From a virus (Duplodnaviria; Heunggongvirae; Uroviricota; Caudoviricetes), in the IMG/VR virus record IMGVR_UViG_3300029859_000151: DNA of 64,000 bases. One strand, given 5' to 3'. A program made the translations under genes and the position numbers. Under the pieces are notes generated by a model. The model did no database searches and had not been told where the DNA came from. It was given only the letters and a program-made list of their open reading frames with translations. Below are positions 21,571-34,248 of this stretch, one piece after another (the stretch's first letter is position 1; each line of letters begins with the position of its first letter).

Positions 21571-21582
21571 TCTGACATATTA
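21571..21582 (+). promoter_or_regulatory. phage promoter motif copy
   Basis: CAAGATCTGACATATTAAAAAAGAG. Confidence 0.55.
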
Positions 21583-21624
21583 AAAAAGAGAATAAAATTA
21601 TTGAAAAATGGAGGATACACATAT

Positions 21625-24453
21625 ATGAATACGAATGATTTGAAATGTAATTGCAGCTTAAGAAAAAGTAGAAATATTCAAACAGATTCGGAAACGGGAA
21701 TGGAATATGCTAAATCTGTTGCTGTCAAAAAGGTGTTACGAGAAGCATTAGAAAACAGTTATACCAAAAAAGATATTATGGATAGATTGGAGGAAGAATT
21801 TAAATATGTAGATTTCCCTACCGAAAAAACAGGTGATATTATCTCAAAAGACATGGCAGCTTGTTTATGGAGATATATCGTCGAAGAAAGAGCTTTAGGC
21901 CGTACAATTAAATTTGTTGAACCTATAAAGTTAAATATCTTTGATACAGAAATTACTGTTAGACCAGATTTTATTGTGTGCGGAGCAAATTCCTTTGAAG
22001 TTGTAAAAATCAGAGCATCTAAGAATTATATGACTAAAACTGAGGAAATGGAAGACAAGGAATTATACGCATTGTTGCAGTATGGAAAAGCTTTGATTCC
22101 AGTAAATACCGTAGGGACTGTAACGGCATCGTATTATTTTTTACGAAAGAAAACAGATTCTGTAAAAGACAATATTTTTGATCCAGGATTTTTTGATGAT
22201 GATTCTGTAAAAAATGGACACACGATTATCTCTTATGCAGATTATATTGTGGATAAAACTTACAATCCGGAAGGAGAGAAGAATCCACTGGATTATAAAT
22301 TTGAGAAAATTTACAATGATTTTTTTGTTGGCATTTCAGAAGAAGACGTTGATACAGAAGAATGTGAGAAATGCGATTTTAAGAATATTTGTGGTTATAA
22401 AAATGCTCCACAGTATATTGTGAAAGAACATAAAGTGAAATCTATTAGTGATTTATCTCTTACAAGTATGCAGGAAAAAGCCATTTCAGCTAAAGCAGGA
22501 TTATATAGAATTAACGCCGGTGCAGGAGCAGGAAAGACATTGGTTGTCGCTCTTCGAGTAGTTAATCTTTTGTTAAGTGGAGTTAACCCAAAAGAAATTT
22601 GTCTGTTGACATTTACAAATGCCGGGGCAAGTGAAATGAGTGAAAGAATTCAGCTCTATAATGCTGATTTTGGAACAGGAATGGATACTTCTAAAATTGT
22701 TTCATGCACCTTTAATAGCTTTGCGAATATGGTAATCAAAAAGCATTGGAAAGATCTCGGTTTTACAGAAAAACCATTGCTAATTGATGATGTAGAAAGG
22801 CTGAGTATTATCGATGATATTCTGGGAAAAACATATATTCCTGGTCTTGATTATAGAAACTATGATGAGGATCGCGTAAGTTTGAAAGGAGCGTTAGCTG
22901 TTACAGCAAAAGCGTTTTCTATTATTAAAACATATCAGTTAAATAGAGGGGATGAAGATATCTTACAGGAAAAAATGAGAGATATTTCTCGCTTTATTTC
23001 TGATCCAATTGCATATACCCAGCTGTTAGAAGCATATGACGATTATGATCAAATTTTGTTGAACAACAATTTGATTGAATATGCAGATCAAGAAATTTTG
23101 ATGTTTAAAATGCTTGAGCTAGATCCATATTATTTTGAAAAAATGGGGTTTAAGCATATTATCGTTGATGAATTCCAGGATAGTAATGAACAGCAAATTC
23201 GATTAATTAAAGAATTGAGGAGCTGTCCAAGCTATGAATCTTTAATGGTTGTAGGAGATGACTCTCAGTCGATTTTCTCATTTCGGGATACAACGCCAGA
23301 ATACATTGTTCATTTCTTTGAGCTTATGGGCGAAGACGGAGAAGATTTCTTCCTTTTGGAAAATCATAGGTCAACGCCAGAGATAATTGATTTAGCAAAT
23401 AAAATCAATGCCTTAAACAAAGAAAAAGTGGACAAAAATTTAATTGCCACTAGAGACCATGGCAAAAAACCGGTTGCAAAAGGATATTTCTCTAAAGAGG
23501 ATGAATTAGAAGAAGTCTCCAACAAAATCAAACAGAAAATCATTGGAGAGGGGGCAAAGGCAGAAGATATTGCATATATCGCATCCGACAAATTTCAGTT
23601 ACTGGAAATGGGAGATATCTTGACTGAAAAGGGAATCCCGTGGGTTATGTTAAATCCGGAACCTGTATTAGAGGATGCTAAAGTTGTGGCAACAATCGCT
23701 TTAGCCAAGGCAATTGAAAATTATGATAACACAGAAGCTATTTTAACTTATCTGAATGTTTTATATAGCAATAAGCTTTTGGTAAAAACAGATGAGGAAA
23801 TCAATACTTTGATTGTTGGGATGCAGGAGCAGATTAAAAAATTCTTGATGTTGACAGACAGAGACAAACAGCTTGGATTTTTTGAAATGACAGATCTCTT
23901 AAATGATGACGAGGATGAACTGTTTGAAAATTTTATAGAAAAGTTAAAACATAAAAAGACTTTTGAACAGGTCGCAGAGTATCTTCGTAAATTCGAACGA
24001 TTTGGGAAAAATGTGACATACAAAAGAACAAAAGATTATCCAGGAGTCGTTTTAACAACAGCTCATTCATCCAAAGGATTGGAATGGCCAATAGTTTTTG
24101 CGGAAATCACTAAGTTCCATAAAAAATCTTTCGGAGGAAATGGAGCGTCAGGAAAAACAAGAGATCAGGCAATTGAAGAAATGAGAAGACTTCTTTTCGT
24201 TACCATCACAAGAGCAAGAGATGAATTATATGTAGTTGGACAATATAAAGCTTTCGGCTCGAAAAAAGACAGGGTTTACAATATGTTTCTTAAAGAAGTG
24301 TATGATGCCCTTGATTTAGCCTATGGTCCTATTGATCCGATGGAAGAAGAAAGAGAAAGAGCGGCAAAAGAGAGAATCAATGCTCGATCAAGAGAACGAA
24401 GAGCAAAGAAAAAAGCAGAACTTATAGGATTAGCAAATGCAAAAGCTGTGTAA
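21625..24453 (+). CDS. UvrD/PcrA-like SF1 DNA helicase with about 290-aa N-terminal Cys-cluster nuclease-like domain
   Basis: helicase motif I GAGAGKTLVVALRV, Ia LLTFTNAGASEMSERI, II IVDEFQDSNEQQ, VI TTAHSSKGLEWPIVF. N-terminal part has LKCNCS plus CEKCDFKNIC (4 Cys, Cas4/AddB-like Fe-S arrangement) and FEVVKIRASK (E-x-K). Confidence 0.8.
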   Translation: MNTNDLKCNCSLRKSRNIQTDSETGMEYAKSVAVKKVLREALENSYTKKDIMDRLEEEFKYVDFPTEKTGDIISKDMAACLWRYIVEERALGRTIKFVEPIKLNIFDTEITVRPDFIVCGANSFEVVKIRASKNYMTKTEEMEDKELYALLQYGKALIPVNTVGTVTASYYFLRKKTDSVKDNIFDPGFFDDDSVKNGHTIISYADYIVDKTYNPEGEKNPLDYKFEKIYNDFFVGISEEDVDTEECEKCDFKNICGYKNAPQYIVKEHKVKSISDLSLTSMQEKAISAKAGLYRINAGAGAGKTLVVALRVVNLLLSGVNPKEICLLTFTNAGASEMSERIQLYNADFGTGMDTSKIVSCTFNSFANMVIKKHWKDLGFTEKPLLIDDVERLSIIDDILGKTYIPGLDYRNYDEDRVSLKGALAVTAKAFSIIKTYQLNRGDEDILQEKMRDISRFISDPIAYTQLLEAYDDYDQILLNNNLIEYADQEILMFKMLELDPYYFEKMGFKHIIVDEFQDSNEQQIRLIKELRSCPSYESLMVVGDDSQSIFSFRDTTPEYIVHFFELMGEDGEDFFLLENHRSTPEIIDLANKINALNKEKVDKNLIATRDHGKKPVAKGYFSKEDELEEVSNKIKQKIIGEGAKAEDIAYIASDKFQLLEMGDILTEKGIPWVMLNPEPVLEDAKVVATIALAKAIENYDNTEAILTYLNVLYSNKLLVKTDEEINTLIVGMQEQIKKFLMLTDRDKQLGFFEMTDLLNDDEDELFENFIEKLKHKKTFEQVAEYLRKFERFGKNVTYKRTKDYPGVVLTTAHSSKGLEWPIVFAEITKFHKKSFGGNGASGKTRDQAIEEMRRLLFVTITRARDELYVVGQYKAFGSKKDRVYNMFLKEVYDALDLAYGPIDPMEEERERAAKERINARSRERRAKKKAELIGLANAKAV

Positions 24454-24460
24454 AATTATA

Positions 24461-24490
24461 AGAGGCGTGAGAAATCACGCCTTTTTCATG
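24461..24490 (+). terminator. rho-independent terminator
   Basis: GGCGTGA-GAAA-TCACGCCTTTTTCATGCC. Confidence 0.65.
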
Positions 24491-24496
24491 CCTTTT

Positions 24497-24508
24497 TCTG
24501 ACATATTA
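24497..24508 (+). promoter_or_regulatory. phage promoter motif copy
   Basis: TTTTCTGACATATTAAAAGAAAAATT. Confidence 0.55.
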
Positions 24509-24540
24509 AAAGAAAAATTAAAAGAAAAAGGAGATTTTCA

Positions 24541-26811
24541 ATGTTACAGATTTCTACATTTTTTATACAGAATAGTGATGAAGCAACTTCATTAGAAAAG
24601 AAAAATCATGAAAATGCTTTTGAATATTTGCCGGAAGCGAAAGCTAAAACATATAGTGAACTTTTGGATAATAAAACTGGCGTAGGATGCACAATTCAAT
24701 TAGTCCCTTCAGAAAAGGAAGGGGCTAAAGAAAATGCGTTAATTGAAAATGGAATGAATTTATATTTGTTATCTACAGCCAGAAGAGCCTTCTTGGAAAA
24801 AGATTGCGATTGTTTGGTTAGCTTATCGTTTAATGAAGATAGTCCGGAAAACAAAAATCGAAATGGGATGATTGTTTATGCCATTTTAAAAACTGATAAT
24901 CGTAAATATATAGATGATATGTTGCCGGATATTTCAAAATATATTTGTGAAAAATTAGGTATTGAAGAAAGTAATACTGAAGAAATAGATAATAACAGAA
25001 TGAGTTCTGAACAAAGAAACGAAAGTAATAAAAGTAATGATGACAATGAAAGTAAGAAAAGCACAAATGAATCAAATGAAATTAGCAATGAGAAAATAAC
25101 GAAAACTTCTGATGCTTTAGATATAATGCCAACAACCGTTTTAAGCCAAAAACAGGCTATAGATAATTACTCCTTGAATAATAAAGAAAGAAATGTGTCT
25201 AAAAAAACAGAAAAGGTTTCAGAAAATTTAAAATCAAAAAAAGTAACAGAAGAAGATATAGAAGATATTTTTTCTATTGCTCAAAAACAAGAAAAAACAT
25301 CTAACATAGAAGAATTTGAAAAGTTTGAATTAGAAAATAATGAAGAGAATCAAAAAAATGAAAAGATGGATTCTTTTTTTATAGAAGAATCTGATAAAAA
25401 TGAAGAAAAGCTATTTTTGGATGAACCACACGAGATAGAGGATGAAAATGAAACAAAATTTCAAAAAAAAGAAAATAAGGAAGAGCAACTAAAAAGACAA
25501 AAAGAAACACAAAAGGAATTGTTAAAAAAATCATCGAAGAAAGCCCCTTTTTTAAATGTAATTGATAATTATATTCCTGATAGCAACTTGGAAAATAAAG
25601 AACTTTTCAAAACATATCACGATGTTGATTACAACATAAAAACAACTGCTTCTAAAGATAAAATAGATAAACTTTTTAATCAGGCACTTAGTTATTGCTA
25701 TCAGAATAAAAGAAGTGAACTTTCTCATGCACAGGAAGGATCTGGAGATATCAAAGCTTTTTTGAATACAATTGCTATTTATGTAAAAGATAGCTTAGAT
25801 CTTCCAGTTGAAGACCGCGATTATTTTATGGATAAAATAAAAAGAGCTTTATTCTCTTATTATATTTTAATCCCATTGATTAACGATCCTCAAGTTTCTG
25901 ATATAAAGGTACTTGCCCCAGATAAAATAAATGTAAAAATAGATGGTATTCATTATAGTGTAGATGGATTAAAATTTGTTGATGCAGACGATTTCCTTAC
26001 CTTTACACTTGGATTAATGCGCCGAAATGGAGCTAAACCGATCAACGGTATTTCAAAATTTACAGATACTAAATTCTGTGATAATTATATTCTCCGATTT
26101 GATGTAACGTTCCCTCAAATAAATGTAAGCGGGTTCCCTGTTGTTCATATTAGAAAAATGGAAAAGAACAAAATGATGATTTCTGATTTAATTAAAGCGG
26201 GAATGTTGGATGAAAAAATGGCAGCTTATTTTAAAGATAAGTTGCGGACAAGTAAAGGTATCGTTATTGCTGGACCATCTGCATGTGGAAAATCAAAGTT
26301 CTTAAATGCGTTAGTAGAAGAAATTCCTTTTACTGAAGCGGGATTAGCAATCCAGGAAGCGGATGAAATTTTTGCTAAAAATCATCCCAATATTATGTGC
26401 CAGCATATGTATTTTGGCGCTAATGGGAATGTTTTGGCTGGAATGGACAAACTTGGAGAAAATGGACTTGTATGCGATGTTAAATATTTTATTATTGGAG
26501 AAATCAAGGGCGCTGAGGCAAGAGACTTTTTGCGAGCAGCTAATACTGGACATATATGTCTATGCACAGTACATACGCCGTCAGCAGAAGAAACAATTCC
26601 TCGATTAGCTGATTATGTGATGCGCGGAACAAGATATAGTATGGAAGAGGCAGAACGACTTTTAAAGGATTTGGAAATAATTGTATATGTTGATAGATTT
26701 AAAATCCGGGAAATAACAGAAGTCCTCGGGTATGATGAAGAACATAAAAAATTAATCTATCGAACAGTATATCTAAGAGATTACCAAAATGAAAACGGAA
26801 AGAGTGCTTAA
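24541..26811 (+). CDS. CpaF/TadA/VirB11-type secretion-family ATPase with long low-complexity (K/E/N/S-rich) N-terminal half
   Basis: VSDIKVLAPDKINVKIDGIHY (TadA/CpaF N-domain motif), Walker A VIAGPSACGKSKFLNAL, Walker B and His-box FIIGEIKGAEARDFLRAANTGHICLCTVHTPSAEE. Residues about 140-330 are a repetitive E/K/N-rich region. Confidence 0.75.
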   Translation: MLQISTFFIQNSDEATSLEKKNHENAFEYLPEAKAKTYSELLDNKTGVGCTIQLVPSEKEGAKENALIENGMNLYLLSTARRAFLEKDCDCLVSLSFNEDSPENKNRNGMIVYAILKTDNRKYIDDMLPDISKYICEKLGIEESNTEEIDNNRMSSEQRNESNKSNDDNESKKSTNESNEISNEKITKTSDALDIMPTTVLSQKQAIDNYSLNNKERNVSKKTEKVSENLKSKKVTEEDIEDIFSIAQKQEKTSNIEEFEKFELENNEENQKNEKMDSFFIEESDKNEEKLFLDEPHEIEDENETKFQKKENKEEQLKRQKETQKELLKKSSKKAPFLNVIDNYIPDSNLENKELFKTYHDVDYNIKTTASKDKIDKLFNQALSYCYQNKRSELSHAQEGSGDIKAFLNTIAIYVKDSLDLPVEDRDYFMDKIKRALFSYYILIPLINDPQVSDIKVLAPDKINVKIDGIHYSVDGLKFVDADDFLTFTLGLMRRNGAKPINGISKFTDTKFCDNYILRFDVTFPQINVSGFPVVHIRKMEKNKMMISDLIKAGMLDEKMAAYFKDKLRTSKGIVIAGPSACGKSKFLNALVEEIPFTEAGLAIQEADEIFAKNHPNIMCQHMYFGANGNVLAGMDKLGENGLVCDVKYFIIGEIKGAEARDFLRAANTGHICLCTVHTPSAEETIPRLADYVMRGTRYSMEEAERLLKDLEIIVYVDRFKIREITEVLGYDEEHKKLIYRTVYLRDYQNENGKSA

Positions 26812-26887
26812 AAATATAGATTTTGAGTATAGAAATGAGTGGAAAATATGCATCCACTCATTTCTTCATTATAAAATATTTTATTTT

Positions 26888-26899
26888 TCTGACATATTA
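26888..26899 (+). promoter_or_regulatory. phage promoter motif copy
   Basis: TTTTTCTGACATATTAGTAATATAAAC. Confidence 0.55.
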
Positions 26900-26933
26900 G
26901 TAATATAAACAAAAAGAAAGGATTTTTTGTACT

Positions 26934-27914
26934 ATGAAATATATATTAAAATATCAGCGATATCCAGTAATGGAAATCGATCTTACTCTGACTCCACATG
27001 GAATAAATTTCAATCGAATTATCAAGATAATTGATCGCCCATTATTGCCATTCGCATTGCAGAATGTGCAAATTTCTGATATGTTGCAGGAATTTAAAAG
27101 ATGGTACATGCAAAGATTAATGCCATCTAATCGAATTGGTATTGAACCGGCGATTAAAAGCATGAGTATGACCAAGGAAAATAATATTAAAGATTTAGAT
27201 TGGAAAGGGACAATAATGCTAATGTCTCTTTTAGCATATGGCCGAAATATGACAGATAAATACTGGTTGTCTCCAACAAGAGATATTGTAATAAACACTG
27301 GAATGCCGACACATGGGCTAAATGGAATAATGCTGAAATCAAAATTAACTTATAAAGGATTAGATTTTCATAAAAACGGAATTGCAGAAGACTATGGATA
27401 TGCGATTTTAAAAAATGATGGAATGCCTAAGAATTCTATGGATTTTAATTGTCCAGATTTTTGCACAAACGGCAAAGAAAAGAAACGATTTGTTAAAGAT
27501 CCGGCAGGTTTTTTCTGGTTAGAAAAATACGTATCAACTAATTTAGAAGAATTTAAAAATAAGGCTAGAAAAATGACGCTGGCATATAATGAACAACCAG
27601 ATATTTTTCAAGGATTTCAATTTGTTTTTGATGAAAATACAATTCCAATAGGCTATAAAACAAGATGTTTAACATCAAAAGATGTTGAATTGGTTACGTT
27701 GAAAGATATTTGCTTAAATGTCGATTATAAAGACAAAACCATCACAAAAGATCGTATGATCGAAAATTTGCAATCATACATTTCAGAAAAGTCAGCAAAA
27801 GATTTTATTGAAATTATTTCTGAATATATCGAACCAGAGAAAATTCCTGATAATTCAGGTGTCCTTATTAACACAACATCAAAGAGCATTATTCAAAAAG
27901 TTGCATGGATGTAA
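26934..27914 (+). CDS. hypothetical protein (326 aa)
   Basis: RBS AAAGAAAGGATTTTTTGTACT-ATG; no recognisable motifs. Confidence 0.55.
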   Translation: MKYILKYQRYPVMEIDLTLTPHGINFNRIIKIIDRPLLPFALQNVQISDMLQEFKRWYMQRLMPSNRIGIEPAIKSMSMTKENNIKDLDWKGTIMLMSLLAYGRNMTDKYWLSPTRDIVINTGMPTHGLNGIMLKSKLTYKGLDFHKNGIAEDYGYAILKNDGMPKNSMDFNCPDFCTNGKEKKRFVKDPAGFFWLEKYVSTNLEEFKNKARKMTLAYNEQPDIFQGFQFVFDENTIPIGYKTRCLTSKDVELVTLKDICLNVDYKDKTITKDRMIENLQSYISEKSAKDFIEIISEYIEPEKIPDNSGVLINTTSKSIIQKVAWM

Positions 27915-27944
27915 CAATTGTAAGAAAAAATTAGGGAGAGTATT

Positions 27945-28190
27945 ATGGGAAATTTTAATGATAAATTAGATGCTATTTTTGAAGTTATTGAAAACATTCC
28001 GGCGGACGCATCATATATTCCGACCGTTGAAGAATTAAGAAAAAACAAAGTAGAAAAAGATATTGAAAAATATTTACCATATCTTTTGTGGGTATCAGAA
28101 ATGCTTGTAGGGACAAAAAATAAAAAAGAAAAAGAAACTAATCGTTATATCAATTATTTAGTAAGTCAATTAGAAGCAGCAGAGGGGTGA
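27945..28190 (+). CDS. hypothetical protein (81 aa)
   Basis: RBS TTAGGGAGAGTATT-ATG. Confidence 0.45.
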   Translation: MGNFNDKLDAIFEVIENIPADASYIPTVEELRKNKVEKDIEKYLPYLLWVSEMLVGTKNKKEKETNRYINYLVSQLEAAEG

Positions 28191-28209
28191 TTTTCCCAAA
28201 GGAGGAATT

Positions 28210-30531
28210 ATGGCCAAAAACGAACTGGAAATGATCACAAAATCAACCAATATTGTGGCGTCAGCGATCACCGATATGCTTACGTCTCTTAGTTATATGA
28301 GGCTTAATGAAAGCCTTAGAGAAACTGAAAGATTAAAAGCAGAAATGCTTTATAAATTAACAAATGGTGGAAAAACAGCTCCGTATTTGCAGGAATACGG
28401 GGCGGAAAATGTCAAGTTTTCTTTATTAATGAGAAAAAAAATTGAAGAATATAACTTGACTGCTGATCCAGAGGATAAAATTAACTTTTTTTTCAGTGAG
28501 ACATTGGATGGGCATAAAGTATTATGGACCGATGAGCAAGGTGCTGCCAAAATCAATAATCTTCGAAAAGAATTACTAATTGCTTTTGGAGATTTTTATT
28601 CTGAAATTAGTCCAAGTGAATTATACAGAGCTAATATGGGAAATGAAGTCGTGACATTCAATGGCGTCACAGAAAAAGAACTCAGTATATTAAAAAGCAA
28701 TATGGGACCGGGCGGAGCGGCATTTTCTTTTGCTACTATTCCTAATGGAGACGGAACATATAATGTTGAAGTAAACAAAAAAGATTTTATTGCAGGTGAA
28801 AATAGAGAAGATTTTTTAGTCAATCTTATTCGTGCAAATACAATAGAGAATAGTGCAAGGAATAGCTATCTTTGCAATGAGTTAGCTTATGAAAAAGATT
28901 TAAAAGAACGCATGATAAATTATGATTCCGAATCGCCAACATATGTTACGTCAGCAACAGACGGTGGCAGATATATCAAGATTACGAAAAATGAATTTTC
29001 TGTTTATAATGTTGGTTTGGATGCAAATGATGTTCGGCAGCAAATAGAACAGCAAGTAAAACTAAAGGATTCATCACCAGAAAAATATAAAGATGAACTA
29101 TACAAAGCAATCATTTCTTTTAACCGACCAGTAGAAATTAACGATGATATATGGAAAGAGAATGAAAAGCAATTTGAAAACTTGTATGGAAAAGAAGGAG
29201 ATCTTTATGCAAGAGAAACCAAAATACAAGCAGCCATAATGAGAGATCTTGAAAAAACTAGGATGAGCTTCCCATCGGTTCGGAGCAAAAAAGCCCCAGA
29301 TTTATTGAAACAGTTAGAAAGACAGGCTAACCGATCATTGGCAGCAAGTATAGCTGCAAAAATTGTTTATGATAAATTAAATAAAGGAGAAGTTATTGAT
29401 ACCGCTCAGATTCCCGAAATGCTCAATCGAAAAGAGGTTGATCGAATTATTAGAGCTGCTTTTTTTAAAGAACACTTACTTCATATGCAGCCGGATATTC
29501 ATAAAGAATTTATAGAACAAATAAAAAATACCGATTTGTTTAAACAATTTGAAGTGGCATTAGTTAATCCAGATCTAAAAGACGAAATGACAAAATTGAT
29601 AGAAAATTCCTATGAAGATTTTTATTTTGAACTAAATAAACCTCTGCAAGAAAAAATAAAAAATGAATATCGTAAATTTGAAAATGAAATAAAAACAAAT
29701 TGTGAAGCTGCGATAAATAAAGGAGTTTCAAAAAGCACCGAACAAACTATTGAACGAATAAAAAATGAAGAAACTGACAAGACTCTTCAGATCATTTTAG
29801 CAAAATGTATTACCGGAAAAACTTTGGAAGGAATCCGACCATTGCAAACCGATATCCAGGTACTCCGTAATGCTGAATTTGATGATGAATTAACAAGATT
29901 ATTTGCTCAAAAGTTAGAAAAGAAATTAGAAGAAATTACAGGAGAAAAAGATTTATCGCCAGATATTTTAAAAACAGAAGCTTATGAAGAAGCTGTTAAA
30001 GCAACATCAGAAGAAATTTTGAGGGGAATTAAAGAAAACACATTAAAGAATGAATCCCCTAAATGGATGTCAGTTATCAAACATGCTGATTATATCGGTG
30101 GAATTGATGAAGAAAAACTAAAGGAAATTGCTGATGCGGCAATTTCTATAGGAGATTATGATTCTAAGTGCCGAGAAATTCAACCACAAGATTTGAGTTG
30201 GGCTACAGATTTAGAACAAGAACAACCAGAAAAATGGGAAATGCTTCAATACGAACATAATGAAGAAAAAATAGGGCAAATATTAAAAGAATCGATTATG
30301 ATTGAAGACGTTGATCTAAATGGTTCTATTGAAAAAATGCAAGGGGTTTTCCACAAAAATTTAGAACAATATAATATCGACGATTCTGAAAGAGATGTAA
30401 ATGGAGAAGTTGATATGGACATGGATTTTGTTAGTCGAAATGTTGATGGTGAAGCATTTGATGAAGAAAAAGAAACCATGGATGAAAGATTCGATAGAAC
30501 GGAAGATGAAGAAATTCCTATAGATGTATGA
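28210..30531 (+). CDS. large hypothetical protein (773 aa), predicted alpha-helical with acidic C-terminus
   Basis: RBS AAAGGAGGAATT-ATG; no recognisable catalytic motifs; DE-rich last 120 aa. Confidence 0.6.
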   Translation: MAKNELEMITKSTNIVASAITDMLTSLSYMRLNESLRETERLKAEMLYKLTNGGKTAPYLQEYGAENVKFSLLMRKKIEEYNLTADPEDKINFFFSETLDGHKVLWTDEQGAAKINNLRKELLIAFGDFYSEISPSELYRANMGNEVVTFNGVTEKELSILKSNMGPGGAAFSFATIPNGDGTYNVEVNKKDFIAGENREDFLVNLIRANTIENSARNSYLCNELAYEKDLKERMINYDSESPTYVTSATDGGRYIKITKNEFSVYNVGLDANDVRQQIEQQVKLKDSSPEKYKDELYKAIISFNRPVEINDDIWKENEKQFENLYGKEGDLYARETKIQAAIMRDLEKTRMSFPSVRSKKAPDLLKQLERQANRSLAASIAAKIVYDKLNKGEVIDTAQIPEMLNRKEVDRIIRAAFFKEHLLHMQPDIHKEFIEQIKNTDLFKQFEVALVNPDLKDEMTKLIENSYEDFYFELNKPLQEKIKNEYRKFENEIKTNCEAAINKGVSKSTEQTIERIKNEETDKTLQIILAKCITGKTLEGIRPLQTDIQVLRNAEFDDELTRLFAQKLEKKLEEITGEKDLSPDILKTEAYEEAVKATSEEILRGIKENTLKNESPKWMSVIKHADYIGGIDEEKLKEIADAAISIGDYDSKCREIQPQDLSWATDLEQEQPEKWEMLQYEHNEEKIGQILKESIMIEDVDLNGSIEKMQGVFHKNLEQYNIDDSERDVNGEVDMDMDFVSRNVDGEAFDEEKETMDERFDRTEDEEIPIDV

Positions 30532-30540
30532 CGAATAAAA

Positions 30541-30580
30541 AGCAACCGCCTTCTCTTTTTGAGAAGGCGGATTTTCTTTA
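30541..30580 (+). terminator. rho-independent terminator
   Basis: AACCGCCTTCTC-TTTTT-GAGAAGGCGGATTTTCTTT. Confidence 0.7.
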
Positions 30581-30617
30581 ACTTAAAATAATCTTATTTC
30601 TATGACTTCTCAAAATA

Positions 30618-30629
30618 TCTGACATATTA
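30618..30629 (+). promoter_or_regulatory. phage promoter motif copy
   Basis: AATATCTGACATATTAAATTAGAA. Confidence 0.55.
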
Positions 30630-30665
30630 AATTAGAATTGAAGAAAGAACAAAGGAGTCCCAAAT

Positions 30666-30908
30666 ATGAAAAAAAGTACATGGAATATATATCCCGATAT
30701 AAAACCTGCAGATATACCAGAAACAGAAGATTTTGGTATTGAATATGAAGTGAAATATAAAACGCCAAATGGTGAAATCAAGACAATGATAACGGAATGG
30801 TTATGGGAAAGGGAATGGAATTGCATCTATCCTGTCATAGCGTGGAAACAGCATAATTCAATTATTTCTTTTGCAGAATACAAATCAAGATGCAAAAATT
30901 ATAAATAA
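30666..30908 (+). CDS. hypothetical protein (80 aa)
   Basis: RBS AAAGGAGTCCCAAAT-ATG. Confidence 0.45.
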   Translation: MKKSTWNIYPDIKPADIPETEDFGIEYEVKYKTPNGEIKTMITEWLWEREWNCIYPVIAWKQHNSIISFAEYKSRCKNYK

Positions 30909-30915
30909 TTATTTT

Positions 30916-30928
30916 CTGTACCGAAAAA
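30916..30928 (+). promoter_or_regulatory. upstream element CTGTACCGAAAAA
   Basis: 17 nt 5' of the promoter core at 30945. Confidence 0.45.
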
Positions 30929-30944
30929 TAAATTTTTAGAAACA

Positions 30945-30956
30945 TCTGACATATTG
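30945..30956 (+). promoter_or_regulatory. phage promoter motif copy (variant ..ATATTG)
   Basis: ACATCTGACATATTGAATATGTAACC. Confidence 0.5.
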
Positions 30957-31007
30957 AATATGTAACCAAAAAACATGGCACACAGGAGGAATTGAATATG
31001 AGTGAGA

Positions 31008-31144
31008 ATATTACTTCACCAGAAAAGAACACTGTAGAAACTACAGAAAAAAAGCCGGCAATGTTTTCTAAGATGACCAGAAATCTTATGATTGCCACGG
31101 GCGTCTTGGTTATTGCAGCTATTGTTGTTGTGAATTTCCTGTAA
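31008..31144 (+). CDS. small membrane protein (45 aa), probable partner of the flotillin gene
   Basis: RBS CACAGGAGGAATTGAAT-ATG; single C-terminal TM helix; perfect palindrome GTGAATTTCCTG-TAA-TCAGGAAATTCAC spans its stop codon. Confidence 0.4.
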
Positions 31145-31237
31145 TCAGGAAATTCACAATATTCTAAGATTTGTAGTTCACAATGCACAGACAAAAATGT
31201 GTAAAAAACAAAACTAAGAAGAAAGAGGAATTAAATT

Positions 31238-32770
31238 ATGTCATTATTAAATTTATCACTTATACCAATTATTGTTGCAGTATTAGTAATTGCATTACTT
31301 TGCATGGGATACGTGAAAGCGCCGCCGGATATGGCATATATTATTTCCGGTGTCAAGAAGAAGTCCAAAGTAGTCATCGGAAAAGCGAGTATTCGTATTC
31401 CATTTTTTGAGCGACTGGATAAGCTGAATCTACGGTTAATTCCAATTGACGTTAAGACAAGCAATGCTGTACCGACAGCAGACTACATCAATATCAATGT
31501 TGATGCAACTGTTAACATTAAGATCAGCAACGATCCAGAGAAGCTGCGGCTTGCGGCAGAGAATTTTTTAAATAAAAACACTGAGTATATTGCCGGGGTG
31601 GCAAGAGAGGTTCTTGAGGGTAATGTGCGTGAGATCGTCGGCAAGATGAAGCTCGAAGAGATGGTGTCTGACCGTCAGAAGTTTGCTAATCTGGTTAAGG
31701 AAAATGCAGAGCCGGATCTTGCAGCGATGGGACTCGATATTATTAGCTTCAATGTCCAGAATTTCGTGGATGGCAATGAGGTTATTGAAAATCTGGGTAT
31801 TGATAATATCGTAAAAATCAAGAAGAGTGCAGCGATTGCCCGTGCCGAGAGTGAGCGAGATATTAAAGTTGCTCAGGCAAATGCGGACAAGGAATCTAAT
31901 GATGCTGCCGTAGCCGCACAGACCGAAATCGCAAAGAAGCAGAATGAGCTTGCCATTAAGAAATCTGAACTTCAGATGGAAGCAGATACGAAAAAGGCTA
32001 TGGCTGATGCTGCTTATGAAATTCAGAAAGAGGAACAGCGTAAAACAATTGAGATCGCTACCGCAAATGCAGATATTGCAAAACAGGAGCGGGAAATTGA
32101 GTTGAAACAGAAGGAGGTTGCGGTCAAGGAGCAGTCTCTAGAGGCAGAGATTAAGAAACAGGCAGAGGCTGATAAGTATGCGGCACAGCAGAAAGCCGAT
32201 GCGGAGTTATATAAACGACAGAAAGAAGCAGAAGCAAAGAAATATGAAATGCAGCAGGAAGCAGAAGCTATGAAAGCGAAAGCAGAAGCAGAAAAATACG
32301 CTAAAGCACAGAATGCAGAGGGTATTCGCGCTATTGGACTTGCAGAAGCGGAAACTATTAAGGCGAAGTCGGTTGCAGAAGCTGAAGGTATCGAAAGAAA
32401 GGCAGAAGCACAGGCAAAGATGGGACAGGCGTCTGTAATTGACATGTTGACAGCTGTTATCCCGGAAGTGGCAAAGAGTGTAGCTGAGCCGTTAGCAAAA
32501 GTTGACAAGATCACAATGTATGGAGATGGTAATTCTACTAAATTAATTGGAGACATTACAAACTCTGTGACAAAAGTAATTGCTGGAGTAGGAGAATCAA
32601 CAGGAGTTGATATTTCCAAAATGGTAAAAGATTTTGCTGAAAAAACTAATGACAAGAAAGATGGTGATGTCATTGTAGACCTTGAGGCAAATGCGAACAC
32701 CAATGATAAAGCAATTGACACAAAGGATGATGACGATTCAGAGGATGTAGATTACAGAGAAGAGAAGTGA
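31238..32770 (+). CDS. SPFH/band-7 flotillin-like protein (YqiK/FloT-like)
   Basis: N-terminal TM helix, SPFH core (IPIDVKTSNAVPTADYININVDATV.., DRQKFANLVKE..) and a long Ala/Glu/Lys-rich coiled-coil (AEAEKYAKAQ..). Local GC is markedly higher than the rest of the window. Confidence 0.8.
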   Translation: MSLLNLSLIPIIVAVLVIALLCMGYVKAPPDMAYIISGVKKKSKVVIGKASIRIPFFERLDKLNLRLIPIDVKTSNAVPTADYININVDATVNIKISNDPEKLRLAAENFLNKNTEYIAGVAREVLEGNVREIVGKMKLEEMVSDRQKFANLVKENAEPDLAAMGLDIISFNVQNFVDGNEVIENLGIDNIVKIKKSAAIARAESERDIKVAQANADKESNDAAVAAQTEIAKKQNELAIKKSELQMEADTKKAMADAAYEIQKEEQRKTIEIATANADIAKQEREIELKQKEVAVKEQSLEAEIKKQAEADKYAAQQKADAELYKRQKEAEAKKYEMQQEAEAMKAKAEAEKYAKAQNAEGIRAIGLAEAETIKAKSVAEAEGIERKAEAQAKMGQASVIDMLTAVIPEVAKSVAEPLAKVDKITMYGDGNSTKLIGDITNSVTKVIAGVGESTGVDISKMVKDFAEKTNDKKDGDVIVDLEANANTNDKAIDTKDDDDSEDVDYREEK

Positions 32771-32993: not shown

Positions 32994-33066
32994 GGACCAT
33001 TAGTTCAGCTGGTAGAACGCTCGGCTCATAACCGGGAAGTCGTAGGTTCGAGTCCTACATGCTCCA
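32994..33066 (+). tRNA. tRNA-Met (anticodon CAT; elongator or Ile2-lysidine type)
   Basis: manual cloverleaf: acceptor GGACCAT/ATGCTCC (one mismatch), D-arm GTTC-AGCTGGTA-GAAC, anticodon loop CTCATAA, T-arm GTAGG-TTCGAGT-CCTAC, discriminator A. Confidence 0.75.
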
Positions 33067-33105
33067 TTTATATAATAGTTAAAAATTTATTTTTAAATAA
33101 AAACT

Positions 33106-33129
33106 TCTGTACCACTGCTGTACCGAAAA
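33106..33129 (+). promoter_or_regulatory. upstream element, tandem half-duplication (CTGTACCACTGCTGTACCGAAAAG)
   Basis: two CTGTACC copies 12 nt apart, 15 nt 5' of the promoter core at 33145. Confidence 0.4.
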
Positions 33130-33144
33130 GTTTTTAAAAATATT

Positions 33145-33156
33145 TCTGACATATTA
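33145..33156 (+). promoter_or_regulatory. phage promoter motif copy (in front of tRNA-Glu)
   Basis: TATTTCTGACATATTATATATGAAATC. Confidence 0.5.
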
Positions 33157-33172
33157 TATATGAAATCAAAAA

Positions 33173-33246
33173 GGCGCCTTGATCTAATGGTTAGTGATAT
33201 CGCTCTTTCACAGCGAAAATGCAGGGTTCGAGTCCCGCAGGCGTCA
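33173..33246 (+). tRNA. tRNA-Glu (anticodon TTC)
   Basis: acceptor GGCGCCT/AGGCGTC, anticodon stem TCGCT/AGCGA with loop CTTTCAC, T-loop TTCGAGT; the T-stem needs a bulged A (GC[A]GGG/CCCGC). Confidence 0.65.
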
Positions 33247-33370
33247 TTCTCTTCTTAAAAGAAGAGACGTTATGTAATAAAAAGTCGTACTATGTAATGG
33301 CCTCCTTTCTGGGATAGACATATTGGCCGGATGTATCTGTCCTCATCACAACCTAAACATAGGCGGCTAC

Positions 33371-33442
33371 GGGATATTAGCTCAGCGGAAGAGCAATCGA
33401 CTTTTAATCGATAGGTCTCGGGTTCGAATCCCGGATGTCCCA
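33371..33442 (+). tRNA. tRNA-Lys (anticodon TTT)
   Basis: acceptor GGGATAT/ATGTCCC, D-arm GCTC-AGCGGAA-GAGC, anticodon stem ATCGA/TCGAT with loop CTTTTAA, T-arm TCGGG-TTCGAAT-CCCGG. Confidence 0.8.
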
Positions 33443-33680
33443 TGATAGGTCTTTTGCCTTTAAAGGTTTTTTCCTTTATCGCAAAAGTGGCAACTTGTTT
33501 TAGGTGTTTTGATTCATCTAAGCAAGAAAAAAATCAGAAAAAAAAGATGTTGCGAAAGCGCGCGCAAGTAACGGCATCAGTTCACATCATTAATCGCCGA
33601 CTGATTTGGAATACCTTTGTTGGGTGTGAACAAATAACTTTGAAAAATAAGTAATTTGGAAAATAAGCAAAAACATATAT

Positions 33681-33771
33681 GATGCAGTACCGAAATGGTT
33701 ATAACGGCAATCCCTGCTAAGGATTTGTGCTGAATTGAGTAAGCATGGAGGTTCGAATCCTCTCTGCATCG
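33681..33771 (+). tRNA. tRNA-Ser (anticodon GCT), long variable arm
   Basis: acceptor GATGCAG/CTGCATC (perfect), anticodon stem ATCC/GGAT with loop CTGCTAA, variable arm TGTGCTGAATTGAGTAAGCAT, T-arm GGAGG-TTCGAAT-CCTCT, discriminator G. Confidence 0.75.
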
Positions 33772-33790
33772 TTATAACAATTTAATATAT

Positions 33791-33873
33791 GCCATATGTC
33801 CGGGTGGTTGAGGGAGCGGTCTTGAAAATCGTTGGCCTATAAAGGCTTGCAGGTTCGAATCCTGTGTATGGCG
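33791..33873 (+). tRNA. tRNA-Ser (anticodon TGA), long variable arm
   Basis: acceptor GCCATAT/GTATGGC, anticodon loop CTTGAAA, variable hairpin GCCT-ATAA-AGGC, T-arm GCAGG-TTCGAAT-CCTGT; D-arm non-canonical. Confidence 0.6.
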
Positions 33874-33909
33874 TTAAAAGAAAAAATATAAATATATTTT
33901 CTCTTTTTA

Positions 33910-33981
33910 TAATAAAGTAATGGGCATTCGCCAAGCGGTAAGGCACTGGATTTTGATTCCAGCATCCGTAGGTTCGAATCC
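33910..33981 (+). tRNA. tRNA-Gln (anticodon TTG)
   Basis: U1:A72 acceptor TGGGCAT/ATGCCCA typical of bacterial tRNA-Gln; anticodon stem CTGGA/TCCAG with loop TTTTGAT; T-arm GTAGG-TTCGAAT-CCTAC. Confidence 0.8.
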
Positions 33982-33988
33982 TACATGC

Positions 33989-34061
33989 CCAGTTAATATT
34001 CTCCTATAGCTCAGTTGGTAGAGCACACGACTGTTAATCGTGTTGTCGTAGGTTCGAGTCC
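33989..34061 (+). tRNA. tRNA-Asn (anticodon GTT)
   Basis: acceptor TCTCCTA/TGGGAGA, D-arm GCTC-AGTTGGTA-GAGC, anticodon stem CACGA/TCGTG with loop CTGTTAA, T-arm GTAGG-TTCGAGT-CCTAC. Confidence 0.8.
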
Positions 34062-34158
34062 TACTGGGAGAGTTAGCAATGTGAACGAGAGCACGGGATA
34101 GTTCTTAAAGCTGCAAATTTACGGGTTCGTAAAGCGAAAAAGCGCATTGCTTAAATAT

Positions 34159-34230
34159 TGCGGAGTAGAGCAGTGGCAGCTCGCAGGGTTCATAACCCTG
34201 AGGTCGCAGGTTCAAATCCTGCCTCCGCCA
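34159..34230 (+). tRNA. tRNA-Met (anticodon CAT), initiator-type
   Basis: 1:72 mismatch (U1 x C72), A11:U24 in the D-stem and three consecutive G:C pairs (GGG/CCC) closing the anticodon stem are the bacterial initiator signatures; anticodon loop TTCATAA; T-arm GCAGG-TTCAAAT-CCTGC. Confidence 0.7.
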
Positions 34231-34248
34231 TTTCAATTAATATAATTT

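What the first reader, a model, noticed from the sequence alone, without database searches (positions are those of the whole stretch)
24497..30580. Phage-encoded CpaF/TadA/VirB11-type ATPase with a 300-aa disordered N-terminus, co-transcribed with three unknown proteins
The His-box (NTGH..TVHT), Walker A/B and TadA-type N-domain motif place this protein in the secretion/pilus ATPase family. That family is not a normal constituent of phage replication or packaging modules. No TadB/C-like platform protein follows. Instead there are 326-aa, 81-aa and 773-aa proteins without recognisable motifs, and immediately after them the small membrane protein plus flotillin pair. This operon-like group (24541-32770) could form a membrane-associated machine for DNA transfer or injection, receptor or pilus interference, or a compartment. 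The function is unknown.
Basis: partly seen in the sequence, partly recalled or inferred. Interest (0 to 1): 0.7.

Follow-up and report, generated by a model that had tools for sequence, protein, structure and literature searches.

The report
Orphan secretion ATPase module on conjugative megaplasmid
The secretion-type ATPase and its unknown neighbours are real and travel together across related elements, but they sit on what looks like a large conjugative plasmid of gut Clostridia rather than a phage, where the ATPase may be a third motor for a Gram-positive DNA-transfer machine that textbooks say has none.

Summary
The four ORFs exist as described: ATPase 24541-26811, then 326-, 81- and 773-aa proteins. 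The ATPase belongs to the T2SSE secretion-ATPase superfamily and is closest to the Tad-pilus motor CpaF. It is not FtsK/HerA-like. No TadB/C platform follows, and none of the four proteins has a membrane segment.

- The N-terminus is a conserved ~145-aa domain plus a ~195-aa acidic low-complexity linker, not 300 aa of disorder.
- A repeated promoter-like motif precedes both the ATPase and the 326-aa gene. A strong terminator follows the 773-aa gene. The flotillin pair is therefore a separate unit, and it is absent from relatives.
- The element is probably not a phage. About 94 kb of it was visible and shows no virion genes. It does show a complete Gram-positive T4SS (VirB6-like, PrgI, VirB4, cell-wall hydrolase, VirD4) and ParM.

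Relatives of the ATPase lie on Butyrivibrio megaplasmids and next to Rep_3, ParA and Mob genes. In one collinear relative the ATPase directly follows VirB4.

The ATPase, 81-aa and 773-aa families stay together in rearranged order in distant elements, usually beside a UvrD-like helicase. The 326-aa protein has a HipA-like kinase fold.

Best reading (about 45%): a CpaF-derived, VirB11-like T4SS ATPase with dedicated adaptor proteins.

The parts
21601..24453 (+). UvrD-like helicase fused to an N-terminal PD-(D/E)XK nuclease (950 aa). It is a recurrent neighbour of the module with its own promoter motif at 21572.
   Evidence: Pfam UvrD-helicase 5.5e-46, UvrD_C and PDDEXK_1. A UvrD-like gene is adjacent to, or near, the ATPase in L001-4, L019, L105 and L106/107, and in 7 Tad-type loci.
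24463..24482 (+). Terminator-like hairpin followed by a T-run, after the helicase gene.
   Evidence: Listed by the scan on the minus strand. Reading the + strand myself, the sequence is AGGCGTGAGAAATCACGCCT followed by TTTTTCAT.
24498..24508 (+). Promoter-like motif CTGACATATTA, 43 nt upstream of the ATPase start codon.
   Evidence: 41 copies in the window against 1.7 expected, and 38 of them on the + strand upstream of genes. The motif sits in the same place in L001-4 and L009.
24541..24975 (+). ATPase residues 1-145: a conserved N-terminal domain of unknown fold (MLQI...H..AFEYLPEAK...).
   Evidence: Alignment A1. jackhmmer finds it only at the N-terminus of long ATPases in L001, L005, L009, L106 and L108. 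No relative in PDB by sequence.
24976..25560 (+). ATPase residues ~146-340: an acidic, lysine-rich, low-complexity linker of variable length.
   Evidence: Composition. Length and sequence are not conserved in A1.
25561..26811 (+). ATPase residues ~341-756: a CpaF/TadA-like N-domain plus RecA-type ATPase domain with Walker A, Asp box, Walker B and His box.
   Evidence: Pfam T2SSE. NCBIfam FlaI, TadA and VirB11 models at 1e-24 to 1e-20, all far below their curated cut-offs. Best PDB match is CpaF 8rkd at 1.3e-17 over residues 379-733.
26838..26860 (+). Weak 7-bp hairpin after the ATPase stop codon; a possible partial terminator.
   Evidence: Read directly from the sequence. The terminator scan did not call it.
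26889..26899 (+). Second promoter-like motif CTGACATATTA, 45 nt upstream of the 326-aa gene.
   Evidence: The same position holds before the orthologous gene in L001 (12364) and L009 (4995).
26934..27914 (+). 326-aa protein with a HipA/CtkA-like kinase fold. Catalytic competence is unresolved.
27945..28190 (+). 81-aa protein with no membrane segment. It is a conserved partner of the long ATPase.
   Evidence: Family members lie directly after, or near, long ATPases in L001-4, L009, L010-12, L019, L106/107 and L108. No known family.
28210..30531 (+). 773-aa soluble protein: a conserved N-terminal alpha/beta domain (~35-320), a helical remainder and an acidic C-terminal tail. It is a conserved partner of the long ATPase.
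   Evidence: Only 40 representative clusters among 1.84 billion proteins. Distant members lie directly upstream of long T2SSE ATPases in L106/107 and L108, and near one in L105. The AF2 model is unusable at pLDDT 47. No Pfam or PDB relative. No match in the plasmid or phage collections.
30546..30570 (+). Strong intrinsic-terminator hairpin (10 bp, 7 GC) followed by a T-run; the end of the unit.

Best explanation
The region is a conserved, entirely cytoplasmic module of a ~260-290 kb conjugative megaplasmid-like element of gut Clostridia. It is not a phage operon.

Components:
- A 756-aa hexameric-type secretion ATPase that descends from the Lachnospiraceae Tad-pilus motor CpaF. It has lost its TadB/C platform and gained a 145-aa N-terminal domain plus a ~195-aa acidic disordered linker.
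- A second transcription unit encoding a HipA-fold (pseudo)kinase (326 aa), a small 81-aa protein and a 773-aa protein.

Proposed mechanism:
- The ATPase serves as the third, VirB11-like ATPase of the element's Gram-positive-type T4SS (VirB6-like, PrgI/VirB3, VirB4, cell-wall hydrolase, VirD4). It would dock at the cytoplasmic face of the VirB4/VirB3/VirB6 complex.
- Its N-domain and linker, together with the 81-aa and 773-aa partners, act as adaptors. They would link the motor to the DNA-processing enzymes encoded alongside (UvrD-like helicase-nuclease, SSB, RecD2, RecJ, topoisomerase) or to transferred substrates.
- The HipA-fold protein is a lineage-specific regulatory add-on.

Shown: family membership of the ATPase; absence of a platform and of TM segments; co-conservation of the ATPase, 81-aa and 773-aa families with rearrangement; T4SS and plasmid context; the transcription signals.

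Inferred: docking to the T4SS, the adaptor roles, and any kinase activity.
For: ATPase family:
- Pfam T2SSE. PDB best match is CpaF, then archaeal GspE, VirB11 and FlaI.
- The nearest genomic relatives (34-37% identity) are Lachnospiraceae ATPases followed by T2SSF (TadC-type) genes and other genes conserved across these loci. I read these as Tad pilus loci.

A distinct long class:
- Long, platform-less ATPases group apart from the Tad-locus forms in an NJ tree.
- Their neighbours are ParA (5), Rep_3 (3), Mob_Pre (3), SSB, RecJ, topoisomerase and VirD4. No phage structural family appears among the 25 most frequent Pfam families, which is all the output lists.

Element context:
- Downstream of the window: Peptidase_S26, ALP_N/ParM, a lipoprotein, a 6-TM TrbL_2/VirB6-like protein, PrgI, VirB4, a 985-aa protein with a lysozyme domain, VirD4 and NERD.
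- Upstream, one variant contig carries a VirD4-like gene.
- The VirB4 is of the CD1110 family, found on 869 plasmid records.

T4SS linkage:
- In L005, which is collinear with this element's T4SS block, the 52%-identical ATPase starts 152 bp after VirB4.
- L054 reads ATPase-110aa-VirB6-like-PrgI-VirB4. L059 reads VirD4-VirB4-NlpC/P60-ATPase-TadB-like-TadC-like.
- The cluster-13 lipoprotein of the T4SS block sits immediately upstream of long ATPases in 8 other loci.
- pCY360 carries both the ATPase and a CD1110 VirB4 about 30 kb apart.

Module conservation:
- ATPase-326-81-773 in L001-4 and L009.
- 773-like, then ATPase, then 81-like in L106/107 and L108. ATPase then 81-like in L019.
Against: - In this element the ATPase lies about 45 kb from the T4SS genes, inside a DNA-metabolism block. 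Direct adjacency to T4SS core genes is seen in only 3 of about 25 long or related loci, and large plasmids carry everything somewhere.
- The ATPase is CpaF-derived, not a VirB11 orthologue. It scores far below the NCBIfam VirB11 and TadA cut-offs.
- No interaction evidence exists.
- The 773-aa and 81-aa proteins have no recognisable fold, so 'adaptor' is a guess.
- Only about 94 kb of the 260-290 kb was visible. No relaxase or Rep was seen, and virion genes elsewhere on the element cannot be excluded.
- The tRNA array, NrdD, the homing endonuclease and a single shared promoter motif are phage-like traits.
Confidence: 0.45

Rival explanations
1. The module is a DNA-processing, replication or segregation ATPase complex that works independently of the T4SS. 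The ATPase and its 81-aa and 773-aa partners would act with the UvrD-like helicase-nuclease, SSB, RecD2, RecJ and topoisomerase, or with ParM/ParA, in maintaining or establishing the megaplasmid.
For: The immediate neighbours are DNA-metabolism genes: UvrD, RecJ, RecD2 x2, SSB and topoisomerase. UvrD is adjacent in several rearranged relatives. ParM directly follows the ATPase in pCY360 and L018, and ParA and Rep_3 are common neighbours. All four proteins are soluble.
Against: From general knowledge of the family, every characterised T2SSE-superfamily ATPase works on a membrane platform, and none is known as a soluble DNA-metabolism motor. The neighbourhood may only reflect a conserved plasmid backbone.
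Confidence: 0.2
2. The protein is an orphan CpaF paralogue that engages the host's chromosomal Tad pilus platform (TadB/C). It could drive, redirect or block host Tad pili, for mating-pair adhesion, surface exclusion or interference.
For: The nearest relatives are Lachnospiraceae Tad-locus ATPases at 34-37% identity. Their downstream cluster-2 gene carries Pfam T2SSF. No platform is encoded nearby. L059 shows a T4SS operon fused to an ATPase-TadB-like-TadC-like operon, so Tad machinery is used by conjugative elements in this group.
Against: The long class has diverged and carries its own N-domain and dedicated soluble partners, which a simple motor swap would not need. The host is unknown. TadB/C could still be encoded in the unseen ~170 kb.
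Confidence: 0.15
3. One reading: a jumbo-phage-encoded secretion ATPase machine, together with flotillin, for DNA injection, pilus or receptor interference, or compartment formation.
For: A 9-tRNA array, NrdD, an HNH endonuclease, uniform gene orientation and a single conserved promoter motif upstream of most genes. Two related long-ATPase contigs (L013, L014) are filed in IMG/VR, and some in GenBank as 'Bacteriophage sp.'.
Against: No virion or packaging gene in about 94 kb, but a complete conjugative T4SS plus ParM. The 'Bacteriophage sp.' records are UNVERIFIED faecal scaffolds that also carry CD1110 VirB4 genes. The exact peptide scan found this ATPase absent from IMG/VR. Gut conjugative megaplasmids are documented as mis-filed among huge phages (PMC12934698). 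Flotillin is not conserved with the module and is transcriptionally separate.
Confidence: 0.07
4. The module is an addiction, defence or anti-defence system. The HipA-fold protein would act as a toxin kinase, the 81-aa protein as its antitoxin, and the ATPase and UvrD-like helicase would form part of an Abi-type or Gabija-like system.
For: HipA-like fold. A small gene lies immediately downstream with a 30-bp gap. The UvrD-like protein matches GajB models, as UvrD-type helicases generally do. Megaplasmids commonly carry toxin-antitoxin and defence genes.
Against: No PADLOC model matches the ATPase, 326-, 81- or 773-aa proteins at a meaningful E-value. The 81-aa family tracks the ATPase, not the HipA-fold protein: L019, L106 and L108 have the former without the latter. 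No HTH antitoxin is present, no HipA Pfam hit is found, and the protein appears to end before HipA's Mg-binding Asp (an inference from the model's secondary structure).
Confidence: 0.1

Closest known systems
CpaF/TadA, the motor ATPase of Tad (type IVc) pili (PDB 8rkd, 9e24)
   Same: It is the best solved-structure match (E 1.3e-17), and the alignment spans both the N-domain and the ATPase domain (residues 379-733). Walker A, Asp box, Walker B and His box are retained. The closest genomic relatives are Lachnospiraceae Tad-locus ATPases.
   Different: No TadB/TadC (T2SSF) homologue is adjacent or anywhere in the ~94 kb seen; pilin and prepilin peptidase genes were not searched for. An extra 145-aa N-domain and a ~195-aa disordered linker have been added. 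It has dedicated soluble partners (81-aa and 773-aa families). It is plasmid-borne.
VirB11 / TrbB / DotB, the T4SS-associated secretion ATPases of Gram-negative systems
   Same: Same superfamily (NCBIfam VirB11 E 1.6e-20; PDB 2gza, 1g6o). It is encoded on an element with VirB4 and VirD4. In relatives it lies directly beside VirB4/PrgI/VirB6-like genes.
   Different: It is not an orthologue: 73 bits against a cut-off of 250. It descends from the CpaF branch. It sits in a Gram-positive-type T4SS, and these are stated to 'universally lack VirB11 homologs' (PMC12857230). In this window it is ~45 kb from the T4SS genes.
TIGR03819 'TadA family conjugal transfer-associated ATPase' (helicase/secretion-neighbourhood ATPase)
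   Same: It is a TadA-like ATPase. From my own recollection of the model's description, that family is linked to conjugal transfer by helicase neighbourhood, and here a UvrD-like helicase-nuclease lies directly upstream.
   Different: The score is 73.6 against a cut-off of 373, so it is not a member. That family is associated with a membrane complex, and none is adjacent here.
Butyrivibrio proteoclasticus B316 megaplasmid pCY360 (and B. hungatei pNP144)
   Same: It carries the closest cultured homologue of the ATPase (38% identity, 620 aa, long type) and a homologue of the HipA-fold 326-aa protein four genes downstream. RecJ-like, topoisomerase and metallophosphoesterase genes lie nearby. A CD1110 VirB4 lies ~30 kb away.
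   Different: ParM lies between the ATPase and the HipA-fold gene. No 81-aa or 773-aa family member was detected there; a 1828-aa protein follows instead. The CTGACATATTA motif is absent.
'Hodor' conjugative megaplasmids of the human gut (PMC12934698)
   Same: Very large (>200 kb) gut Bacillota elements with VirB4, VirD4 and VirB6, ParM, Phage_lysozyme2 domains and TnpB. They were previously filed among huge phages and lack TerL.
   Different: Hodors are 44-47% GC against 32% here. They are defined by a Sec/sortase/giant surface-protein module. A search of that paper's main text found no mention of VirB11, T2SSE, CpaF or TadA. Membership was not tested by sequence.
HipA / CtkA kinases (PDB 5k98, 4pu3, 3akj), compared with the 326-aa protein
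   Different: No sequence-level HipA_N or HipA_C hit. It is about 110 aa shorter than HipA. No HipB-like HTH partner is present. The catalytic residues were not verified.

Membership tests
T2SSE secretion-ATPase superfamily (PF00437) | Profile match above the curated threshold | tested here: met
   65.2 bits against a gathering score of 24.9, E 5.6e-18.
T2SSE secretion-ATPase superfamily (PF00437) | Walker A, Asp box, Walker B and His box motifs | tested here: met
   GPSACGKS, IQEADEIF, IIGEIKGAEA and NTGH..TVHT align to CpaF. G578, G583, K584, E606, E609, G653, E654, K656, G657, E659 and H678 are invariant in A1.
CpaF/TadA Tad-pilus motor | Adjacent TadB/TadC (T2SSF) platform genes | tested here: not met
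   No T2SSF hit and no TM segment in the downstream proteins. jackhmmer with TadB/C-like proteins finds nothing in the window or in L098-L102. The unseen ~170 kb was not testable.
CpaF/TadA Tad-pilus motor | Score above a curated TadA-family model cut-off | tested here: not met
   TIGR03819 scores 73.6 against a cut-off of 373.
VirB11 (T4SS ATPase) | Score above the curated VirB11/TrbB model cut-offs | tested here: not met
   TIGR02788 scores 73.4 against 249.95, and TrbB 57.3 against 304.55.
VirB11 (T4SS ATPase) | Encoded within or beside the T4SS gene cluster | tested here: inconclusive
   It is on the same element but ~45 kb away. It is directly adjacent to VirB4 in L005, and heads the T4SS core genes in L054.
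VirB11 (T4SS ATPase) | Physical docking under the VirB4 hexamer | not testable with these tools
   No multimer prediction or experiment was available.
FtsK/HerA packaging or translocase ATPases | FtsK_SpoIIIE/HerA profile match | tested here: not met
   Pfam lists only T2SSE and a sub-threshold adhesin-domain hit for the ATPase, and no FtsK or HerA family. The only hint is EccCb at E 0.055.
Tailed phage genome | Terminase, portal, major capsid and tail genes | tested here: not met
   None among the ORFs scanned (all but a few of those of 150 aa or more) with PHROGs or Pfam, nor in the flanks L098-L102. Only about 94 kb of 260-290 kb was visible.
Conjugative element with a Gram-positive (CD1110/PrgJ-type) T4SS | VirB4, VirD4, VirB6-like, VirB3/PrgI and a cell-wall hydrolase | tested here: met
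   PrgI, TrbL_2 (6 TM), VirB4 (P-loop_TraG/AAA_10/DUF87), a 985-aa protein with Phage_lysozyme2, and a 988-aa VirD4. The VirB4 matches 869 plasmid records.
Conjugative element with a Gram-positive (CD1110/PrgJ-type) T4SS | Relaxase, oriT and a replication initiator | not tested
   None seen in the visible part. Rep_3 and Mob_Pre occur next to related long ATPases in other loci.
HipA toxin kinase (326-aa protein) | HipA-type fold | tested here: met
HipA toxin kinase (326-aa protein) | HipA_N/HipA_C sequence profiles, catalytic Asp/Asn/Asp residues and a HipB partner | tested here: inconclusive
   No Pfam or PDB sequence hit. The residues could not be superposed. No HTH partner is present.
Flotillin/NfeD pair as part of the module | Co-conservation and co-transcription with the ATPase group | tested here: not met
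   No homologue in any related locus. It is separated by the terminator at 30546-30570 and has its own promoter motifs at 30619 and 30946.

The most novel reading that the evidence does not exclude
A previously undescribed three-component cytoplasmic system gives the Gram-positive-type T4SSs of gut Clostridia megaplasmids a VirB11-like third ATPase. Its parts are a CpaF-derived long ATPase with a novel N-domain, an ~85-aa protein and a ~650-800-aa protein, plus in some lineages a HipA-fold (pseudo)kinase. It would couple UvrD-type DNA processing to the channel. This runs against the current statement that monoderm T4SSs universally lack such an ATPase.
Probability: 0.3. Interest if true: 0.75.

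Novelty: new variant of a known kind. Interest (0 to 1): 0.58.

Why it matters
Current reviews state that Gram-positive conjugation machines run on VirB4 and VirD4 alone. Finding a secretion-superfamily ATPase repeatedly on Clostridia conjugative elements would give T4SS researchers a concrete, testable exception. Three times it lies inside the T4SS operon itself, and it comes with two conserved partner families of unknown fold. A cultured relative exists for testing, pCY360 of B. proteoclasticus B316.

The result also adds a low-GC (~32%), tRNA-bearing, single-promoter-motif class of ~260-290 kb gut elements to the growing list of megaplasmids that can be mistaken for huge phages. That matters for virome and host-range statistics.

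Tried and rejected
- Pfam, PHROGs, NCBIfam and PADLOC gave no meaningful match for the 326-, 81- and 773-aa proteins.
- The word-indexed homologue searches found only narrow families of 19, 7 and 5 proteins.
- The first viral-contig scan with the single ATPase found nothing.
- The AF2 model of the 773-aa protein from a 6-sequence alignment was unusable at pLDDT 47.
- Profile and sequence searches of PDB gave nothing for the 326-aa family, the 773-aa family, the ATPase N-domain and the 81-aa protein.
- P0057, a 1820-aa hit to the 773-aa profile, is a cadherin/PKD surface-repeat protein that matches a short GDGTY-like stretch 16 times. I rejected it as spurious.
- The afdb50 fold library was unavailable.
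- Rfam found only tRNAs. No group I intron was called at the NrdD insertion.
- The megablast search of 24 kb (window 20000-44000) against phages matched only tRNA-like snippets.
- The sigma-70 promoter scan was no better than shuffled sequence. The element-specific motif was found by eye instead.
- The flotillin link and the defence-system reading were considered and set aside, for the reasons given under the rival explanations.


Full report
**1. Observation**

The four ORFs are present on the + strand at 24541-26811 (756 aa), 26934-27914 (326 aa), 27945-28190 (81 aa) and 28210-30531 (773 aa).

The 756-aa protein matches Pfam T2SSE at E 5.6e-18, above the gathering score. Among NCBIfam models its best hits are FlaI, TadA-family and VirB11 (E 1e-24 to 1.6e-20), all far below their curated cut-offs. 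Among solved structures the best match is the Tad pilus motor CpaF (8rkd, 9e24; E 1.3e-17), aligned over residues 379-733. Archaeal GspE, VirB11 and FlaI follow. Walker A, the Asp box, Walker B and the His box are intact and invariant across eight homologues.

The three downstream proteins have no meaningful Pfam, PHROG, NCBIfam or PADLOC match. None of the four proteins has a hydrophobic segment long enough to span a membrane.

**2. Corrections to the description**

- *The N-terminus is two things.* Residues 1-145 are a conserved domain. jackhmmer finds it only at the N-terminus of long ATPases in L001, L005, L009, L106 and L108. Residues ~146-340 are an acidic, lysine-rich, low-complexity linker of variable length.
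- *The group is probably two transcription units.*
  - The 11-mer CTGACATATTA occurs 41 times in the window (1 mismatch allowed) against 1.7 expected. Thirty-eight copies are on the + strand, typically about 30-47 nt before start codons.
  - One copy precedes the ATPase (24498) and one precedes the 326-aa gene (26889). None precedes the 81- or 773-aa genes.
  - A terminator-like hairpin follows the upstream helicase gene (24463-24482), and a weak hairpin follows the ATPase gene.
  - A strong 10-bp GC-rich hairpin with a T-run follows the 773-aa gene at 30546-30570.
  - The same motif positions hold in L001-4 and L009.
- *The flotillin pair is a separate unit.* The 80-aa gene and the 50-aa/flotillin pair have their own motif copies (30619, 30946). 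They have no homologue in any related locus.

**3. What kind of element this is**

PHROG and Pfam scans of most of the window's larger ORFs give DNA-metabolism and mobile-element genes:
- a UvrD-like helicase-nuclease, RecJ, two RecD2-like helicases, SSB and a type IA topoisomerase;
- NrdD, nucleotide kinases, DUF4317, an HNH endonuclease and TnpB.

No virion or packaging gene appears.

Contigs carrying the window's end genes extend the view.
- Just past the topoisomerase lie a signal peptidase, an ALP_N/ParM actin-like protein, a lipoprotein, a six-TM TrbL_2/VirB6-like protein, PrgI (VirB3-like) and VirB4.
- After VirB4 come a 985-aa protein ending in a lysozyme domain, a 988-aa VirD4 coupling protein and a NERD protein.
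- About 8.5 kb upstream of the window, one variant contig carries another VirD4-like gene.

The VirB4 is of the 'CD1110 family'. It matches 869 plasmid records, 531 of them typed conjugative. Its 'phage' matches are almost all UNVERIFIED 'Bacteriophage sp.' faecal scaffolds. The same series produced 9 of the ATPase's 10 phage-database hits; the tenth is Microcystis phage MaAM05.

The best cultured homologues of the ATPase are on the Butyrivibrio megaplasmids pCY360 (38% identity) and pNP144.

A recent preprint documents that >200-kb gut conjugative megaplasmids have been filed among huge phages (PMC12934698). Those 'Hodors' are 44-47% GC, whereas this element is about 32%, so I do not claim membership.

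I conclude, at about 80%, that this is a conjugative megaplasmid-like element. The phage-like traits are the 9-tRNA array, NrdD with a homing-endonuclease insertion, and one promoter motif for nearly all genes. Together with the ~170 kb that was not visible, they keep a phage or hybrid reading alive at low probability.

**4. Relatives of the ATPase**

A scan of one genome per species found 182 relatives, almost all from Lachnospiraceae and other Clostridia. Clustering the neighbours separates two classes.

- *Short ATPases (340-480 aa).* These are followed by a conserved set of genes that includes a T2SSF/TadC protein (Pfam) and a ~75-aa protein that I take to be a pilin. I read these as ordinary Tad pilus loci.
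- *Long ATPases (570-900 aa).* These have N-terminal extensions and no TadB/C. They group apart from the short forms in a neighbour-joining tree of the core (no bootstrap, so this is indicative only).

A Pfam census of 135 neighbours of the long class gives ParA (5), Rep_3 (3), Mob_Pre (3), SSB (3), RecJ-type DHH (4), topoisomerase, sortase and VirD4. No phage structural family appears among the 25 most frequent families, which is all the output lists.

**5. Link to the T4SS**

- L005 carries the 52%-identical long ATPase. It is collinear, gene for gene, with this element's block from the topoisomerase through ParM, the lipoprotein, VirB6-like and PrgI to VirB4. There the ATPase begins 152 bp after VirB4.
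- L054 reads ATPase-110 aa-VirB6-like-PrgI-VirB4.
- L059 reads DUF3801-VirD4-VirB4-NlpC/P60-ATPase-TadB-like-TadC-like.
- The lipoprotein of the T4SS block (my cluster 13) lies directly upstream of long ATPases in eight further loci.
- pCY360 has both genes about 30 kb apart, much as here (about 45 kb).

A 2025 review states that Gram-positive T4SSs 'universally lack VirB11 homologs' (PMC12857230). These arrangements are at least a gene-neighbourhood exception, involving a CpaF-derived ATPase rather than a VirB11-orthologous one.

**6. The neighbours are partners, not passengers**

| Locus | Gene order |
|---|---|
| Window, L001-4 (71% core identity) | ATPase-326-81-773 |
| L009 (50% core identity) | ATPase-115 aa-SleB-type hydrolase-329-81-749; NlpC/P60 and DUF932 downstream |
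| L010-12 | 326-88-736 (contig starts at the 326-aa gene) |
| L106/107 | UvrD-773-like(818)-ATPase(901)-81-like(87) |
| L108 | RecD2-metallophosphatase-SSB-...-773-like(631)-ATPase(796)-81-like |
| L105 | 773-like(660), with UvrD upstream and two T2SSE genes downstream |
| L019 | ATPase(623)-81-like(85) |

A full HMMER search of 1.84 billion representative proteins with the 773-aa profile found only 40 clusters. Its N-terminal domain (~35-320) is shared with 450-820-aa proteins.

Conservation of the trio through rearrangement argues for a functional unit. The 326-aa protein is restricted to the window lineage and pCY360.

The 773-aa family is absent from both the sequenced-plasmid and phage collections.

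**7. The 326-aa protein**

Foldseek agrees only weakly. There is no sequence-level HipA signal. The protein is about 110 aa shorter than HipA, and no HTH antitoxin is present. From the secondary-structure register, it appears to end about where HipA's Mg-binding Asp would lie. That is an inference, not a superposition, so kinase activity is open.

**8. Mechanism and rivals**

Every characterised member of this ATPase superfamily acts at the cytoplasmic face of a membrane platform (established knowledge of PilB, PilT, GspE, CpaF, FlaI and VirB11). The only such machine seen on this element is the T4SS.

My best explanation (0.45) is a VirB11-like role, with the N-domain and linker and the 81-aa and 773-aa proteins acting as adaptors to DNA-processing enzymes or substrates.

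Rivals:
- a T4SS-independent DNA-processing or maintenance complex (0.20);
- an orphan CpaF that engages the host's Tad platform (0.15);
- a toxin-antitoxin or defence module (0.10);

**9. Novelty and score**

The ATPase family is known. What appears undescribed is the long, platform-less, plasmid-borne class with its N-domain and two dedicated partner families, and its recurrent placement in Gram-positive T4SS clusters. My literature searches found nothing on it.

I rate it a new variant of a known kind, with interest 0.58. The structure of the finding is solid, but the mechanism is inferred from neighbourhood alone.

Noticed in passing
window, 41 sites, e.g. 312, 21572, 24498, 26889, 30619, 34630, 61163; also L001-4, L009 and L098-L101: The 11-mer CTGACATATTA occurs 41 times against 1.7 expected, almost always on the coding strand and typically about 30-47 nt before start codons. 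It is conserved exactly in relatives whose proteins are only 40-70% identical, and absent from L005, L006 and pCY360. It looks like an element-specific promoter (extended -10-like), which implies a dedicated sigma factor or other transcription factor.
   Followed up: partly
just beyond the window's 3' end: L098 12513-22400 and L102 10001-21403 (about window-equivalent 63.7-83.5 kb): A complete Gram-positive conjugative T4SS block: Peptidase_S26, ALP_N/ParM, a lipoprotein, 6-TM TrbL_2/VirB6-like, PrgI, CD1110-type VirB4, a 985-aa protein with Phage_lysozyme2, a 988-aa VirD4 and NERD.
   Followed up: yes
window 49504-52944: The anaerobic ribonucleotide reductase gene nrdD is interrupted by a ~1.25-kb insertion (about 50146-51397) carrying an HNH/NUMOD4 homing endonuclease ORF (50313-51275). 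In contig L099 the gene is continuous. Rfam calls no group I intron here.
   Followed up: partly
window 32994-34322: An array of nine tRNA genes: Met x2, Glu, Lys, Ser x2, Gln, Asn and an Ile with anticodon TAT. It lies between the flotillin gene and recJ. This is unusual for a plasmid and one reason the element looks phage-like.
   Followed up: no
window 30992-32770: A 50-aa single-TM protein plus a FloT-like flotillin (SPFH/Band_7) form their own unit. They are absent from every related element fetched, so they are lineage-specific cargo rather than part of the ATPase module.
   Followed up: yes
L059 1050-12812 (Lachnospiraceae MAG, CAAEYS010000033.1): A T4SS operon (DUF3801, VirD4, VirB4, NlpC/P60 hydrolase) runs straight into a Tad-type operon (ATPase, TadB-like, TadC-like). 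This suggests some Clostridia conjugative elements pair a T4SS with a Tad pilus.
   Followed up: partly
window 3841-5034; L100 versus L101: TnpB/IS605-family insertions differ between otherwise near-identical contigs of this element. The related lineage L001/L004 carries a group II intron reverse transcriptase upstream of the helicase gene.
   Followed up: no
phage collection records MT835xxx-MT838xxx ('UNVERIFIED: Bacteriophage sp.', human faecal samples): Many of these scaffolds carry CD1110-type VirB4 genes, long T2SSE ATPases or plasmid-type topoisomerases. Part of that record series is likely plasmid or ICE DNA rather than phage.
   Followed up: partly
L025, L026, L028, L029, L033, L035, L042 (Lachnospiraceae genomes): A UvrD-like helicase (755-789 aa) is encoded divergently, directly upstream of ordinary Tad-type ATPase-TadB/C loci. 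The helicase-secretion ATPase pairing therefore extends beyond the plasmid-borne long class.
   Followed up: no
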